A DNA stretch of 4,409 bases from a virus (Duplodnaviria; Heunggongvirae; Uroviricota; Caudoviricetes). Below are positions 1 to 4,409 of this stretch, piece by piece. The position numbers were made by a program, and so were the translations under genes. Below the pieces are notes generated by a model. That model was not told the DNA's origin and did not search any database. It saw only the letters and a program-made list of their open reading frames with translations. How positions within the stretch are numbered: the first letter of the stretch is position 1; every line of letters begins with the position of its first letter. Location: the IMG/VR virus record IMGVR_UViG_2734482545_000008; one strand, given 5' to 3'.

Positions 1-79
1 GCTTTGAACTCTTTAGAGTAACGTTGGGTTTTTCTGCTCATTATTAGCTCCTTCTGATGCCATTCTATTTCAGGAAGGA

Positions 80-782
80 GTGTCCGTTAAACTCAGGCTA
101 CCTCAGGTTATTCGCTTCTGGGCATGGGCGGATCAACAAATGATAGACGGTAATGCAGATTGTAACGCTCGCGGCGTTACAAAAAGTGCAATAGATCGCA
201 TCACTTTTATGTCTGGTTTTGCTGATGCGTTAATTCAGGTTGGATGGCTGGTCGAAAATGACGGAGGGCTTTCTCTACCTAACTTTGAACGTCATAACGG
301 AAAAAGCTCTAAAAAAAACGGGCGGTTACAAACGAGCGAGTAACAAAAATACGCGAACTGAAACGAAAAGGTAACGCTGCCAGCGTTACACAAACGGATC
401 AAAAAGCGTTACCAGAGGAAGAGGAAGAGGAAGATCTAAATACTGATCTCCCCCTCGCCAAAAACGAGCGTCTAAAAAATTCGAGCCGGAGGCTATTGAG
501 CTGCCCGATTGGTTGCCGGAAACACTCTGGCATGAGTGGGTCCGGTTCAGACAGGCATTGCGAAAACCGATTCGAACGGAGCAGGGCGCTAACGGGGCGA
601 TACGGGAACTGGAAAAATTCCGTCAGCAGGGTTTTACACCTGAGCAGGTGATTCGACACAGCATCGCCAATGAATACCAGGGCCTGTTCGCGCCGAAAGG
701 TGTTCGGCCTGAGACGTTGCTCCGACAGGTTAACACCGTCTCGTTGCCGGACAGTGCGATCCCGCCAGGCTTCAGGGGGTAA
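80..782 (+). pseudogene. Phage replication-initiation / replisome-organizer-like protein, frameshifted (two -1 frame changes) or carrying homopolymer sequencing errors
   Basis: Three collinear + strand segments read as one protein: frame 2 from GTG 80 (AGGAAGGA just upstream) to stop 341-343; frame 1 open 313..649 (…KIRELKRKGNAASVTQTDQKALPEEEEEEDLNTDLPLAKNERLKN, no ATG); frame 0 open 447..782 (…PDWLPETLWHEWVRFRQ…PPGFRG*, no ATG; the ORF track's M at 513 is a TTG). Frame switches coincide with A8 (311-318) and A6 (474-479). Stop at 780-782 lies 6 nt before the dnaC-like ATG (coupling). Function inferred from position and the basic/acidic linker; not from a search. Confidence 0.5.
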
Positions 783-788
783 CGGACC

Positions 789-1219
789 ATGAAAAATATT
801 GCGACAGGCGGCGTTCTGGAACGCATCCGCCGACTGACCCCGCCACATGTAACCGCCCCATTCAGAACGGTAGCGGAGTGGCGCGAGTGGCAACTTGCTG
901 AAGGCCAGAAACGTAGCGAGGAGATCAACCGCCTGAATCGCCAGTTGCGGGTGGAAAAAATTCTGAATCGCTCAGGCATCCAGCCGTTGCACCGTAAATG
1001 CTCGTTTGCGAATTACCAGGTGCAGAACGACGGCCAGCGATACGCGTTAAGCCAGGCGAAATCCATCGCCGATGAACTGATGACCGGGTGTACAAATTTT
1101 GCGTTCAGCGGAAAACCTGGTACCGGGAAGAATCACTTAGCGGCAGCTATCGGGAATCGCCTGCTGAAAGACGGTCAGACAGTGATTGTGGTTACCGTGG
1201 CTGATGTTATGAGCGCCCT
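789..1219 (+). CDS. dnaC: DnaC-family AAA+ helicase loader (phage-encoded, lambda P functional analogue); 5' part only, interrupted by N-run
   Basis: ATG at 789. N-terminal 143 aa match my recollection of E. coli DnaC closely: NRSGIQPLH, CSFANYQV, Walker A FSGKPGTGKNHLAAAI, VTVADVMSA. The reading frame runs into the N block at 1220; the C-terminal ~100 aa (Walker B, sensor motifs) are not present in the window. Confidence 0.9.
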
Positions 1220-1294
1220 NNNNNNNNNNNNNNNNNNNNNNNNNNNNNNNNNNNNNNNNNNNNNNNNNNNNNNNNNNNNNNNNNNNNNNNNNNN
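1220..1294. other. Run of 75 N (assembly gap or masked sequence)
   Basis: Directly visible. The 314-aa ORF 789..1733 in the ORF track is an artefact of translating these N as X. Confidence 0.95.
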
Positions 1295-1310
1295 AGTTTC
1301 AGGAGGATTT

Positions 1311-1733
1311 ATGGCGAAACCTTTTACTCCCGAACAGCGGGAAGAACTGAAGACGCGAATTGTGGAACTCGTGCATCAGGACGGTCGGGTCACGATTCGG
1401 CAGTTGTCAGATGAAACAGGTATCAGTCGTGCGTCTGTCGGTCGCTTATGCATAGAACTGGTCGCAAGTGGTGATGTATATAATTCTGGCTACGGCTTAT
1501 TCCCGTCTGAACAGGCTCGCAAGGACTGGCAAAGCGCCCGCAAAAAACTCTCGAGAGTAAAGGTGAGGAAACCGGTTGTTGTTGATCCGGACCTTATCTG
1601 GTCATTACCTGACGGAGAAATACGCCGCTACGACAGGCGCCTGAATATAATCTGTCGCGAGTGCCGGAAGAGCGAAGCTATGCAGCGTGTACTGGCTTTC
1701 TATCAGGGTAATTTTCAGGAGGCGATACTGTGA
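1311..1733 (+). CDS. Small helix-turn-helix (probably winged-helix) DNA-binding protein, 140 aa; function unknown
   Basis: AGGAGG at 1301-1306, 4 nt before ATG 1311; stop TGA 1731-1733. The segment VTIRQLSDETGISRASVGRLCIELVASGDV has the hydrophobic/Gly/polar pattern of an HTH. No resemblance to the DnaC C-terminus, so it is a separate gene. Confidence 0.75.
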   Translation: MAKPFTPEQREELKTRIVELVHQDGRVTIRQLSDETGISRASVGRLCIELVASGDVYNSGYGLFPSEQARKDWQSARKKLSRVKVRKPVVVDPDLIWSLPDGEIRRYDRRLNIICRECRKSEAMQRVLAFYQGNFQEAIL

Positions 1734-1790
1734 ATGAAATTAGCTATCAGGCTTCAATTACCGCTGGCATTCGCATCAAAGGAGAGGAGC

Positions 1791-2147
1791 ATGGAAATAA
1801 AACCAGAAGATGAGTTAAGCAATATCGTTTTATTTCCGGTAAAAGAGGATGACCCTCGTAATCAGGTTAATTTTCTTTATGAGCCATCGGAAAGACCATA
1901 TTGCCATCACGCCTCTGTACGGGTTGACGAAAAAGAGCGTCAGGTCCGCTGTAAAATCTGCGGTGCGGTTGTGGAGCCGTTTGACTGGATGCTCTCTGTG
2001 GCAAAAAGAGAAACCAGACTGGCAGATGATGTAAGGCTATTGCGCCAGGAGGAACAGGAAAGGCGGAGAAATATAGAAAAGCTGATACAGATTGAGCGTA
2101 ACGCGAAAGCGCGGATACGCAGGGCGACAAAATCCAGAACTGAATAA
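1791..2147 (+). CDS. Small zinc-ribbon-like plus coiled-coil protein, 118 aa; hypothetical
   Basis: GGAGAGGAG at 1781-1789 before ATG 1791; stop TAA 2145-2147. Putative metal site C-H-H…C-x2-C (YCHHASVRVDEKERQVRCKICG), followed by a charged heptad-like tail (RLADDVRLLRQEEQERRRNIEKLIQIERNAKARIRR). Alternative start ATG 1734 (abutting the upstream stop) would add 19 aa, but that stretch has two AGG codons and looks like RBS sequence. Confidence 0.65.
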   Translation: MEIKPEDELSNIVLFPVKEDDPRNQVNFLYEPSERPYCHHASVRVDEKERQVRCKICGAVVEPFDWMLSVAKRETRLADDVRLLRQEEQERRRNIEKLIQIERNAKARIRRATKSRTE

Positions 2148-2294
2148 TTAAATTTAGCACTGTTAAAAATTTAATCCTTAACCGGAGGGATTTCTGCACC
2201 CTCAAATCATCAGGAGACCACCCGAAAGGGCGGGGAGCAGTCACACATCTGTTTCCGATAGCCCCGTTCTAATGCTACACTCTTTGATATTTTT

Positions 2295-2981
2295 ATGACC
2301 CCAATAAACATATTTATGACAGTTGCTGATTTCAAACGGCCCAAATTGGAGCTCCCAAACGGGGCAAACAAACTACTACTGCACTCTTGCTGTGCTCCAT
2401 GTTCCGGTGAGGTGATGGAGGCGCTTCAGGCCTCGGGAATCGACTACACCATCTTTTTCTACAACCCGAACATTCATCCTCAGAAAGAGTATTTAATTCG
2501 TAAGGATGAGAATATTCGCTTTGCTGAACAACACGGCGTGCCGTTTATTGATGCTGATTACGACACAGACAACTGGTTTGAACGAGCCAAAGGAATGGAA
2601 TGGGAGCCCGAACGAGGGATCCGTTGCACCATGTGTTTTGACATGCGTTTTGAGCGGACAGCGCTGTACGCCGCTGAAAATGGTTTCAGTGTGATCAGCA
2701 GTTCACTGGGCATTTCACGCTGGAAAAATATGCAGCAGGTTAACGACTGTGGGCGGCGAGCCGTCGCGCATTATCCGGGCATGGTGTACTGGGATTATAA
2801 CTGGCGCAAGCAGGGCGGCTCGTCCCGTATGATTGAAATCAGCAAGCGCGAAAAATTCTATCAGCAGGAATATTGTGGCTGTGTGTATTCTCTGCGCGAT
2901 ACCAATCTACACCGCAAATCTCAGGGACGCCCTCTTATCAAAATTGGTCAACTCCACTACGGTAAAGAAGAGAAGGAGTGA
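2295..2981 (+). CDS. queH: QueH-family (DUF208) epoxyqueuosine reductase-like Fe-S protein, 228 aa
   Basis: Cys signature [11 protein letters not shown] near the N-terminus, [10 protein letters not shown] mid-protein and EYCGCVYS near the C-terminus, which I recognise as the conserved Cys/His pattern of DUF208/QueH. Start is uncertain: ATG 2295 or ATG 2316, neither with a clear SD. Stop TGA 2979-2981. Confidence 0.78.
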
Positions 2982-3002
2982 TTTTATGGGGCACCTTTCT
3001 GA

Positions 3003-3032
3003 TTGATTTCATATTGGCGAGGTAAGTAGAAT
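3003..3032 (+). promoter_or_regulatory. Sigma70-like promoter candidate: TTGATT, 18-nt spacer, TAGAAT
   Basis: -35-like TTGATT 3003-3008 and -10-like TAGAAT 3027-3032, in the intergenic region after queH and pointing into the masked block. Hexamer match only; not verified. Confidence 0.3.
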
Positions 3033-3130
3033 GACTGCGGGTGCTTGAGGCTATCTGCTTCAGGCATGAACACCAAAAGGCAGATAGAGAAAAGCCCCAG
3101 TTAACATTACGCGTCCGGCAAGACGCTTAA

Positions 3131-3471
3131 NNNNNNNNNNNNNNNNNNNNNNNNNNNNNNNNNNNNNNNNNNNNNNNNNNNNNNNNNNNNNNNNNNNNNN
3201 NNNNNNNNNNNNNNNNNNNNNNNNNNNNNNNNNNNNNNNNNNNNNNNNNNNNNNNNNNNNNNNNNNNNNNNNNNNNNNNNNNNNNNNNNNNNNNNNNNNN
3301 NNNNNNNNNNNNNNNNNNNNNNNNNNNNNNNNNNNNNNNNNNNNNNNNNNNNNNNNNNNNNNNNNNNNNNNNNNNNNNNNNNNNNNNNNNNNNNNNNNNN
3401 NNNNNNNNNNNNNNNNNNNNNNNNNNNNNNNNNNNNNNNNNNNNNNNNNNNNNNNNNNNNNNNNNNNNNNN
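3131..3471. other. Run of 341 N (masked or unsequenced block)
   Basis: Directly visible. Bracketed by a promoter-like element upstream and an intrinsic terminator downstream, so it probably hides a short + strand transcription unit. Confidence 0.95.
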
Positions 3472-3501
3472 GTCAGGCATCCTCAACGCACCCGCACTTA
3501 A

Positions 3502-3544
3502 CCCGCCCATCGCTGTGATCTCTCAGCGTTTCGGCGGGTTTTTT
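3502..3544 (+). terminator. Rho-independent terminator (nested GC hairpin plus U-tract)
   Basis: CCCGCC (3502-3507) pairs with GGCGGG (3533-3538); inner stem CGCTG (3511-3515) pairs with CAGCG (3524-3528); followed by TTTTTT at 3539-3544 and more T-rich sequence. Orientation matches + strand transcription; comparable to the tR-type terminators in the lambda nin region. Confidence 0.55.
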
Positions 3545-3564
3545 GTTGTTTATTTCCGGTGAAT

Positions 3565-3592
3565 TTGATTCGCGCACCTTCGCAGATAGAAT
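3565..3592 (+). promoter_or_regulatory. Sigma70-like promoter candidate: TTGATT, 16-nt spacer, TAGAAT
   Basis: -35-like TTGATT 3565-3570 and -10-like TAGAAT 3587-3592, just after the terminator and about 80 nt before ATG 3674. Same two hexamers as the candidate at 3003-3032. Confidence 0.35.
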
Positions 3593-3673
3593 CGACTCAC
3601 TTAAGTAGCGCGCAGGGAGAAGAGGGATGGACCCCGAACAGGGGAGAGCTATTTATCTGGAAGGATTCTGAAG

Positions 3674-3961
3674 ATGAAAATCGAAGAATTGCGTGAAATT
3701 TTTAGTGAAAATGGCCTCTATGCTGTGCGCGTTGAGAATGGAGCGATTGTCAGCCATTGCCGCATTAGATGTTTGCAATCTCAACAAAGGAAGAGCGGTG
3801 CTGTGTTATTTTATTTTTGTAATGGACTTCTGACGGACGGTTTTATTTTGCGTGAGGACGAATTTGTCACATCATTACGGGTTTTGAAAGAGATTGGTTT
3901 TAAGGCTGGTTTTCTGCTTTTGCTGAAGAATAAACTCATCTACAATCTTGAGCAGGATTGA
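3674..3961 (+). CDS. Hypothetical small protein, 95 aa, AT-rich coding sequence
   Basis: ATG 3674 preceded by GGAAGGA (3660-3666); stop TGA 3959-3961. No family recognised. Composition looks AT-richer than the replication genes (by eye, not computed). Confidence 0.5.
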   Translation: MKIEELREIFSENGLYAVRVENGAIVSHCRIRCLQSQQRKSGAVLFYFCNGLLTDGFILREDEFVTSLRVLKEIGFKAGFLLLLKNKLIYNLEQD

Positions 3962-3999
3962 ACTCCTGCTGTGTAACACCGTGCCACCGGAGAAAGCCG

Positions 4000-4353
4000 A
4001 TGGCACATATACAACTGGTCAAACAAACCTCTTCCGGATTACTTCTCCCGGCGACGCCGGAGAGTTGCGATTTTCTGCATCAAATCAAAATAGGTGAGTG
4101 GATACACGCAGACTTTAAGCGTGTGTGTAACTACGCATTCCACAAGCGTTTTTTCAAACTCCTGCAACTGGGTTTCGATTACTGGACTCCGGTCGGTGGG
4201 GCGATCACGCCTCGCGAACGAAAACTGGTGTCCGGTTTCGTTGATTACCTGTGTGAATCAGTAGGCCGGGAACATACGCCAGCTCTGAGCGAAGCCGCAG
4301 AGCAATTGAGGTGTACTGGCAATAGCGGACACTACCATTTGTTCTTTTTTTAA
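4000..4353 (+). CDS. Hypothetical protein, 117 aa
   Basis: ATG 4000 preceded by GGAG (3989-3992) with a 7-nt spacer; stop TAA 4351-4353. The track's longer version starts at TTG 3958 with no SD. No family recognised with confidence. Confidence 0.6.
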   Translation: MAHIQLVKQTSSGLLLPATPESCDFLHQIKIGEWIHADFKRVCNYAFHKRFFKLLQLGFDYWTPVGGAITPRERKLVSGFVDYLCESVGREHTPALSEAAEQLRCTGNSGHYHLFFF

Positions 4354-4409
4354 GCAGCCATCTGATGATATTTTTCCCTGAAGGCTGCCGGGGAGATATT
4401 CCCCAGACG

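What the first reader, a model, noticed from the sequence alone, without database searches (positions are those of the whole stretch)
80..782. Replication-initiator-like gene readable only across three frames, both breaks at poly-A runs
Frame 2 (80..343), frame 1 (open 313..649) and frame 0 (open 447..782) together give one continuous, protein-like sequence. The downstream segments have no ATG, and the last one is coupled to the dnaC-like start. Both changes are -1 shifts and coincide with A8 (311-318) and A6 (474-479); the contexts A_AAA_AAC and A_AAA_AAT also resemble -1 slippery heptamers. Explanations: homopolymer sequencing/assembly errors, decay of a cryptic prophage replication gene, or (least likely) programmed frameshifting.
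Basis: partly seen in the sequence, partly recalled or inferred. Interest (0 to 1): 0.45.

Follow-up and report, generated by a model that had tools for sequence, protein, structure and literature searches.

The report
Triple-hit prophage replication-initiator pseudogene
This is an ordinary dead gene: the replication-initiator gene of a decaying prophage in Shigella sonnei, broken by an IS600 insertion, a 2-base expansion of an A-run and a 10-base deletion, and not a case of programmed frameshifting or assembly error.

Summary
Window 80-782 is the remnant of a ydaU-like phage replication-initiator gene that lies upstream of a dnaC-like ydaV. It sits in a cryptic Rac-like prophage of Shigella sonnei. 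Intact E. coli and phage homologues are one 262-aa ORF.

The three-frame reading is real, but there are three lesions, not two:
- **IS600 insertion.** IS600 inserted after about nt 103-106 of the gene, with a 3-bp GGT target duplication. Window 1-105 is the IS600 end, and the supposed GTG start at 80 lies inside the IS inverted repeat. The first 34-35 codons sit on the far side of the IS.
- **A-run expansion.** A6 became A8 at 311-318, a gain of 2 nt.
- **10-bp deletion.** It lies between two TCCCCCT direct repeats, with the junction at 449-455.

All ten independent S. sonnei assemblies examined carry A8 and the deletion. The chimeric 87-aa ORF occurs on 492 contigs, so the lesions are genuine and fixed. 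No complete E. coli genome carries either lesion. The neighbouring ydaT is also frameshifted.

Verdict: routine IS-driven reductive decay. Interest is low.

The parts
1..105 (-). Terminal 105 bp of an IS600 copy (IS3 family). Contains the inverted repeat TGAGGTAGCCTGAGTTTAACGGACAC (reverse complement at 80-105) and the first codons of orfA (ATG is the reverse complement of 39-41).
   Evidence: 99-100% matches annotated 'IS3-like element IS600 family transposase' in 435 plasmid records. The IR was located in S. sonnei loci. Called transposase genes lie directly upstream in L004-L013.
106..108 (+). Right-hand copy of the 3-bp target-site duplication GGT made by the IS600 insertion.
   Evidence: In L004 the left junction reads ...GGGAAGGT|TGAGG and the right junction ...CCTCA|GGTTATTC. 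The intact gene reads GGGAAGGTTATTC.
80..343 (+). Chimeric 87-aa ORF. The first 8-9 codons come from the IS600 inverted repeat, followed by ydaU codons 35 to about 105, then an out-of-frame tail (NGRLQTSE) after the A8 run.
   Evidence: phrog_2509 matches residues 8-80 to profile positions 34-102.
104..316 (+). Native-frame segment A (frame 2): the N-terminal initiator module from codon 35 onward.
   Evidence: Alignment to intact genes. Translation QVIRFWAW...GKSSKK.
311..318 (+). A8 homopolymer. It is A6 in intact homologues, so this is a +2 frameshift lesion.
   Evidence: None of 162 complete E. coli genomes with this region has A8. A9 is seen in other contigs labelled S. sonnei.
319..448 (+). 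Native-frame segment B (frame 1): the linker region RAVTNERVTKIRELKRKGNAASVTQTDQKALPEEEEEEDLNTDL.
415..432 (+). (GAGGAA)3 tandem repeat encoding the poly-Glu stretch. It is present as 3, 6 or 7 copies in different S. sonnei assemblies. The changes are in frame and are not a lesion.
449..455 (+). Junction of the 10-bp deletion. A single TCCCCCT remains where intact genes have TCCCCCTAAATCCCCCT. This is the second frame break.
   Evidence: None of 551 complete E. coli genomes with this region carries the deletion.
456..782 (+). Native-frame segment C (frame 0): the C-terminal DnaT-like domain. The stop TAA is at 780-782.
   Evidence: 81% identical to the C-terminus of K-12-type YdaU. Matches the DnaT C-terminal domain 2ru8 at E=9.5e-5.
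162..412 (.). Cluster of GTAACGC/GCGTTAC palindromes (162-180, 371-389, 406-412; also GGTTAC..GTAAC at about 324-345). These are candidate initiator-binding iterons, that is, an origin inside the initiator gene. This is inferred, not shown.
   Evidence: Five of the six GCGTTAC matches in the whole window fall here, against 0.43 expected. Palindromes are listed. K-12-type ydaU has a different iteron set at the same position.
789..1219 (+). 5' part of the dnaC-like helicase-loader gene ydaV. The rest is hidden by the N-run at 1220-1294. The gene is intact (248 aa) in S. sonnei assemblies that are identical over 1-1219.
   Evidence: Pfam IstB_IS21..

Best explanation
Window 80-782 is a pseudogene. 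It is the remnant of the replication-initiator gene of a cryptic Rac-like lambdoid prophage in Shigella sonnei. The gene is ydaU-like and belongs to PHROG 2509. It has an N-terminal initiator module and a C-terminal DnaT-like domain, and it lies just upstream of the dnaC-like loader ydaV.

Three independent mutations inactivated it:
- An IS600 transposition into codon 35, with a 3-bp GGT duplication. This separates the promoter, the start codon and the first 34 codons from the rest of the gene.
- Replication slippage that lengthened an A6 run to A8.
- A slipped-strand deletion of 10 bp between two TCCCCCT repeats.

No full-length protein can be made. The 87-aa ORF is an accidental in-frame fusion that starts in the IS600 inverted repeat. 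The lesions are fixed in the S. sonnei lineage and are part of the general IS-driven decay of this prophage.

Shown: the lesions, their positions, their reproducibility across assemblies, and the homology. Inferred: the mutational mechanisms and the loss of function.
For: - Intact homologues are one 789-nt, 262-aa CDS directly upstream of ydaV in E. coli and in the phage Rac record. 680 E. coli genomes cover at least 80% of the query.
- The alignment shows exactly three differences: loss of homology upstream of 105, A6 to A8, and a 10-bp deletion.
- Window 1-105 is the IS600 end.
- In complete S. sonnei genomes the 5' stub of ydaU (a 41-aa ORF, MASNW...GKV followed by IS-derived codons) lies on the other side of the IS600, flanked by a GGT duplication.
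- All 10 S. sonnei loci have A8 plus the deletion. Four of the five checked are 100% identical to window 1-1219; L012 matches at 1179 of 1219. The exact 87-aa ORF is on 492 contigs.
- None of 162 and none of 551 complete E. coli genomes carry A8 or the deletion respectively.
- Function of the intact protein: phrog_2509 'replication initiation protein', residues 1-262 to profile 1-277, E=1e-89. The C-terminal 124 aa are 81% identical to K-12-type YdaU and match the DnaT C-terminal domain.
- The surroundings are also decaying. ydaT has a 1-bp deletion. IS elements flank and interrupt the prophage, and a second IS600 abuts DUF1367, which is 117 aa here against 199 aa elsewhere.
Against: - Both A-runs happen to form in-phase -1 slippery heptamers: A_AAA_AAC at 313-319 in frame 2, and A_AAA_AAT at 474-480 in frame 1. 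Low-level slippage cannot be excluded from sequence alone.
- No expression or read-level data were available here.
- The order of the three lesions is unknown.
- An A9 (in-frame) allele without the codon-35 IS exists in a few contigs labelled S. sonnei. A8 may therefore derive from A9 rather than directly from A6.
Confidence: 0.95

Rival explanations
1. Homopolymer sequencing or assembly errors: the gene is intact in the organism and the frame breaks are artefacts.
For: One break is at a homopolymer (A8), a classic error site. The window contains N-runs, so it may come from an imperfect assembly.
Against: - A8 and the 10-bp deletion occur in 10 of 10 independent S. sonnei assemblies from several projects, both short-read drafts and assemblies with contigs of about 4.8 Mb.
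- The exact ORF product is on 492 contigs.
- A 10-bp deletion and an IS insertion with a target duplication are not homopolymer errors.
Confidence: 0.01
2. Programmed (recoding) -1 frameshifting or transcriptional slippage at the two A-runs yields a functional initiator from three frames.
For: In-phase heptamers A_AAA_AAC (313-319) and A_AAA_AAT (474-480) are read directly from the sequence. Runs of A can support RNA polymerase slippage (established knowledge).
Against: - Intact homologues need no frameshift and have A6 at the first site.
- The second native frame change is a deletion at 449-455. A slip at 474-480 would replace the native NPPRQKRAS with AKNERL.
- The gene has lost its start codon, its first 34 codons and its upstream promoter region to IS600.
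- No notable structure lies downstream of either site (z = -1.1 and -1.6), and there is no Rfam match.
- The lesions are confined to one host lineage.
Confidence: 0.02
3. Two or three genuinely separate small genes: an N-terminal DNA-binding protein of about 87 aa plus an independent C-terminal DnaT-like protein of 89 aa starting at TTG 513.
For: Both ORFs are called and deposited as proteins in S. sonnei annotations. The C-terminal domain is a discrete module shared with K-12 YdaU.
Against: - The PHROG profile and all annotated intact homologues span both parts in one polypeptide.
- The 87-aa ORF starts inside the IS600 inverted repeat.
- The 89-aa ORF lacks an ATG and starts in the middle of the domain.
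Confidence: 0.02

Closest known systems
ydaU-ydaV replication module of E. coli Rac-type prophages (262-aa variant, e.g. WP_038340159.1, WP_001737256.1 'phage replication initiator YdaU family protein', phage Rac MN652886 ydaU)
   Same: Same gene order (cI-like, cro-like, ydaT, ydaU, ydaV). 93-99% DNA identity. Same stop-to-start spacing to ydaV.
   Different: The window copy is disrupted by IS600, a +2 change in the A-run and a 10-bp deletion. The intact copies are single ORFs.
E. coli K-12 Rac YdaU (285 aa, Pfam DUF1376)
   Same: The C-terminal 124 aa are 81% identical. Same position upstream of ydaV.
   Different: The N-terminal module is unrelated. There is no DUF1376 hit. The PHROG is different (phrog_6451 against phrog_2509). 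The internal repeat motifs are different.
Phage lambda O protein with ori-lambda inside the O gene (established knowledge)
   Same: Two-module initiator followed by a helicase-loader gene. There is a weak match to phrog_678 'replication initiation O-like'. Repeated palindromic motifs sit in the middle of the coding sequence.
   Different: No close sequence similarity. The origin function of the motifs was not tested. The loader is DnaC-like rather than P-like.
E. coli primosomal protein DnaT (dnaT-dnaC operon)
   Same: The C-terminal domain is similar to DnaT (2ru8 at E=9.5e-5, 9zbt at 3e-4). It is paired with a DnaC-type loader gene.
   Different: Only the C-terminal 90 or so residues match. 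The score is far below the NCBIfam cutoff (16 against 201 bits). This is a domain relative, not an orthologue.
IS-driven pseudogenisation in Shigella genomes (established knowledge of Shigella reductive evolution)
   Same: IS600 insertion with a 3-bp duplication, additional small indels, and neighbouring genes also inactivated.
   Different: Nothing distinctive. This is a typical example.
Programmed -1 frameshifting at A_AAA_AAG-type heptamers (dnaX, IS3-family transposases)
   Same: In-phase A-rich heptamers are present at both A-runs.
   Different: The recoding is not conserved in homologues. There is no stimulatory element. The true second frame change is a deletion elsewhere.

Membership tests
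Phage replication initiator, YdaU-like (PHROG 2509) | Full-length sequence match to the family profile | tested here: met
   The intact homologue matches 1-262 to profile 1-277/277, E=1.2e-89. The window fragments match profile positions 34-102 (E=9e-37) and 193-277.
Phage replication initiator, YdaU-like (PHROG 2509) | Located immediately upstream of a DnaC/IstB-type helicase-loader gene in a lambdoid early-right operon | tested here: met
   The stop at 780-782 is followed by the ydaV ATG at 789 (IstB_IS21). The cI/cro/ydaT genes lie upstream in S. sonnei loci.
Phage replication initiator, YdaU-like (PHROG 2509) | Uninterrupted ORF able to encode the protein (functional member) | tested here: not met
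   IS600 insertion, A6 to A8, and a 10-bp deletion. This is a pseudogene of the family.
Phage replication initiator, YdaU-like (PHROG 2509) | Origin binding and initiation activity | not testable with these tools
   Only the family annotation and the repeat motifs are available.
Pfam DUF1376 (PF07120; K-12 YdaU N-terminal domain) | Match to PF07120 above the gathering score | tested here: not met
   No Pfam family at E<=0.01 for the intact 262-aa homologue or for the window fragments. The N-termini do not align with the 285-aa YdaU.
Programmed -1 ribosomal frameshift site | Slippery heptamer X_XXY_YYZ in the correct phase | tested here: met
   A_AAA_AAC at 313-319 relative to frame 2. A_AAA_AAT at 474-480 relative to frame 1.
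Programmed -1 ribosomal frameshift site | The frame change is conserved among homologues | tested here: not met
   The three intact homologues aligned are single ORFs. None of the complete E. coli genomes carries A8 or the deletion.
Programmed -1 ribosomal frameshift site | Downstream stimulatory structure | tested here: inconclusive
   Folding of 320-400 and 481-561 gives z = -1.13 and -1.60, which is not distinctive. No Rfam match.
IS600 (IS3 family) insertion | Terminal inverted repeats TGAGG... and a 3-bp target-site duplication flanking a complete element | tested here: met
   99-100% identity to annotated IS600. Both ends and the GGT duplication are seen in L004 and L006, with orfA/orfB genes between them.
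Sequencing or assembly artefact | The lesion is not reproducible across independent assemblies | tested here: not met
   10 of 10 assemblies carry the lesions, and the ORF is on 492 contigs.

The most novel reading that the evidence does not exclude
The A-run (A6 in E. coli, A8 in most S. sonnei, A9 in a few contigs labelled S. sonnei) may be a hypermutable tract. The IS600::ydaU chimeric 87-aa ORF, or products of residual slippage, might still be expressed from IS600-derived signals. The result would be a truncated DNA-binding fragment that binds the GTAACGC/GCGTTAC palindromes within the gene. Such a fragment could interfere with replication of related incoming phages or of the second Rac-like prophage.
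Probability: 0.03. Interest if true: 0.35.

Novelty: already known. Interest (0 to 1): 0.08.

Why it matters
It matters little beyond annotation hygiene. The locus should be annotated as one ydaU-family pseudogene interrupted by IS600, not as separate hypothetical proteins, which is how S. sonnei records currently list the 87-aa and 89-aa fragments. It is one more documented case of IS-driven prophage decay in Shigella. It implies that this prophage cannot initiate its own replication. The three lesions and the hexamer VNTR could serve as lineage markers.

Tried and rejected
- An exact-match scan of genome contigs for the IS600/ydaU junction found nothing. Shigella sonnei is probably not a species representative there. 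The source was instead identified through the look-up of encoding contigs and the listing of cluster members.
- A paper search for ydaU + ydaV + replication returned no papers.
- Pfam gave no family for the intact homologue or the fragments. NCBIfam gave only a sub-threshold DnaT C-terminal hit.
- Rfam gave no match in the window.
- Folding downstream of both A-runs showed nothing distinctive.
- The A6 run at 474-479 was considered as the second lesion site and rejected, because it is unchanged in intact genes.
- A6 to A8 as the only possible route was considered. An A9 allele exists, so the mutational path is uncertain.

Full report
**Source and context**

Window 1-1219 is 100% identical to four of the five Shigella sonnei assemblies compared (L012 matches at 1179 of 1219), and blocks 1295-3130 and 3472-4409 are 100% identical to L004. 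The exact 87-aa product of ORF 80-343 is on record on 492 contigs, named as S. sonnei hypothetical or bacteriophage protein.

In assemblies with contigs of about 4.8 Mb the gene order is: IS-interrupted lysis genes, cI-like repressor, cro-like gene, ydaT, a 41-aa stub, IS600 on the minus strand, the 87-aa ORF, ydaV (DnaC/IstB-like, 248 aa), DUF977, a 118-aa ORF, QueH, hok/gef, Rem, a truncated DUF1367, a second IS600, an integrase fragment, and modCBA. The window is the segment between two IS600 copies of a decaying Rac-like lambdoid prophage. IS600 ends lie at 1-105 and 4307-4409.

**What the intact gene looks like**

Megablast against 5,426 complete E. coli genomes found 680 genomes that cover at least 80% of window 1-1219. 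Every one of the best matches begins at window 105. In three annotated records the homologous gene is one 789-nt, 262-aa CDS that ends 6 nt before ydaV. In one RefSeq record it is annotated 'phage replication initiator YdaU family protein'.

The 262-aa protein matches PHROG 2509 'replication initiation protein' end to end (E=1e-89). Its last 124 residues are 81% identical to K-12-type YdaU. They also resemble the C-terminal domain of primosomal protein DnaT (PDB 2ru8, E=9.5e-5). The N-terminal module is unrelated to DUF1376.

**The lesions**

Alignment of window 60-800 with three intact genes shows three differences.

1. **IS600 insertion.** Upstream of position 105/106 the window is IS600, not ydaU. 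In S. sonnei loci the left junction reads GGGAAGGT|TGAGG..., and the right junction reads ...CCTCA|GGTTATTC. The intact gene reads GGGAAGGTTATTC. This is a simple IS600 insertion with a 3-bp GGT duplication in codon 35. The first 34 codons survive as a 41-aa ORF on the far side of the IS. The GTG at 80 lies within the IS600 inverted repeat and happens to be in frame, which creates the chimeric 87-aa ORF.
2. **A-run expansion.** The A-run at 311-318 is A8 where all three intact genes have A6, a gain of 2 nt.
3. **10-bp deletion.** Intact genes read GATC-TCCCCCTAAA-TCCCCCT-CGCC. The window reads GATC-TCCCCCT-CGCC, a 10-bp deletion between 7-bp direct repeats with its junction at 449-455.

The frame arithmetic (+2, then -10) reproduces the observed succession of frames, 2 then 1 then 0. 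It is not a lesion.

**Real or artefact**

All ten independent S. sonnei loci retrieved have A8 and the deletion. These include both short-read drafts and assemblies with contigs of about 4.8 Mb.

None of the 162 complete E. coli genomes that contain the A-run region has A8. The best identity is 97.7%, which equals the 2-nt gap. None of the 551 that contain the deletion region has the deletion. The best identity is 89.7%, which equals the 10-nt gap.

The lesions are therefore genuine, fixed in S. sonnei and lineage-specific. A few contigs labelled S. sonnei carry a different allele. These have no IS at codon 35 and an A9 run, which is in frame and gives SSKKKR. One of them (L016) also shows the end of another IS after about nt 408. 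This indicates independent hits on the same gene and a length-polymorphic A-run.

**Programmed frameshifting**

Both A-runs form in-phase heptamers, A_AAA_AAC at 313-319 and A_AAA_AAT at 474-480. Several observations argue against recoding:
- The frame changes are absent from homologues.
- A slip at 474-480 would not restore the native sequence, because the native frame changes 20-30 nt upstream.
- The gene is severed from its start codon and promoter region by IS600.
- RNA folding downstream of each site is unremarkable (z = -1.1 and -1.6).
- Rfam finds nothing in the window.

**Decay of the neighbourhood**

ydaT upstream has a 1-bp deletion that truncates its ORF from 140 to 101 aa. DUF1367 is cut by the second IS600. 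The integrase is a fragment, and the lysis region is rearranged and IS-ridden.

**Side observation**

The middle of the gene carries GTAACGC/GCGTTAC palindromes at 162-180, 371-389 and 406-412. Five of the six matches in the whole window fall here, against 0.43 expected. K-12-type ydaU has a different N-terminal module and carries a different repeat set at the equivalent place, ACAGATGTTCAA-like at 33-nt spacing with an inverted copy. This fits a lambda-like arrangement in which the origin's iterons lie inside the initiator gene and co-vary with the DNA-binding module. That is inference only.

**Verdict**

This is an ordinary triple-hit pseudogene of a known phage replication-initiator family in a decaying S. 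sonnei prophage. Its 'decay' option is correct. Its 'assembly error' and 'programmed frameshift' options are refuted.

Noticed in passing
window 4307-4409 (and 1-105): The window is bounded by two IS600 copies in the same orientation. The second one abuts a DUF1367 gene that is 117 aa here against 199 aa in another prophage (L009). The segment between them could be lost or inverted by IS600-IS600 recombination.
   Followed up: partly
window 1220-1294 and 3131-3471: The two N-runs are not length-preserving relative to otherwise identical S. sonnei assemblies. The 75 N stand for 314 nt of the ydaV 3' half. The 341 N stand for 281 nt that contain a hok/gef-type toxin gene (MKQQKAMLIALIVICLTVIVTALVTRKDLCEVRIRTGQTEVAVFVDYESRK) and its upstream regulatory region.
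   Followed up: partly
window 415-432: The GAGGAA hexamer repeat (poly-Glu coding) is a VNTR, with 3 copies in the window and five assemblies, 6 in four assemblies and 7 in one. It may be useful as a typing marker.
   Followed up: partly
window 162-180, 324-345, 371-389, 406-412: GTAACGC/GCGTTAC palindromes are clustered inside the initiator gene, against 0.43 expected by chance. K-12-type ydaU has a different iteron-like set at the same place (L009 7528-7634). This suggests a lambda-like origin within the initiator gene.
   Followed up: partly
L004 8140-8300 (upstream of the window, ydaT): ydaT in S. sonnei carries a 1-bp deletion (GTTAGCC to GTT-GCC) that frameshifts the 140-aa gene. A 101-aa ORF remains.
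   Followed up: yes
L014-L016 (contigs labelled S. sonnei): An alternative ydaU allele has A9 (in frame, an extra Lys) and no IS at codon 35. L016 also shows the end of an IS600-like element inserted after about nt 408 of the gene. This is an independent inactivation of the same gene.
   Followed up: partly
L009, L012, L013 (S. sonnei draft contigs): In some short-read drafts the same IS600 is joined on its other side to a second, K-12-type Rac prophage that has an intact 285-aa YdaU and a truncated ydaV. This may be a real alternative arrangement or a chimeric assembly across the IS600 repeat.
   Followed up: no
window 3674-3961, 2295-2981: A Rem-family (PF27490) ORF and a QueH (epoxyqueuosine reductase) gene are carried as prophage cargo and appear intact.
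   Followed up: no
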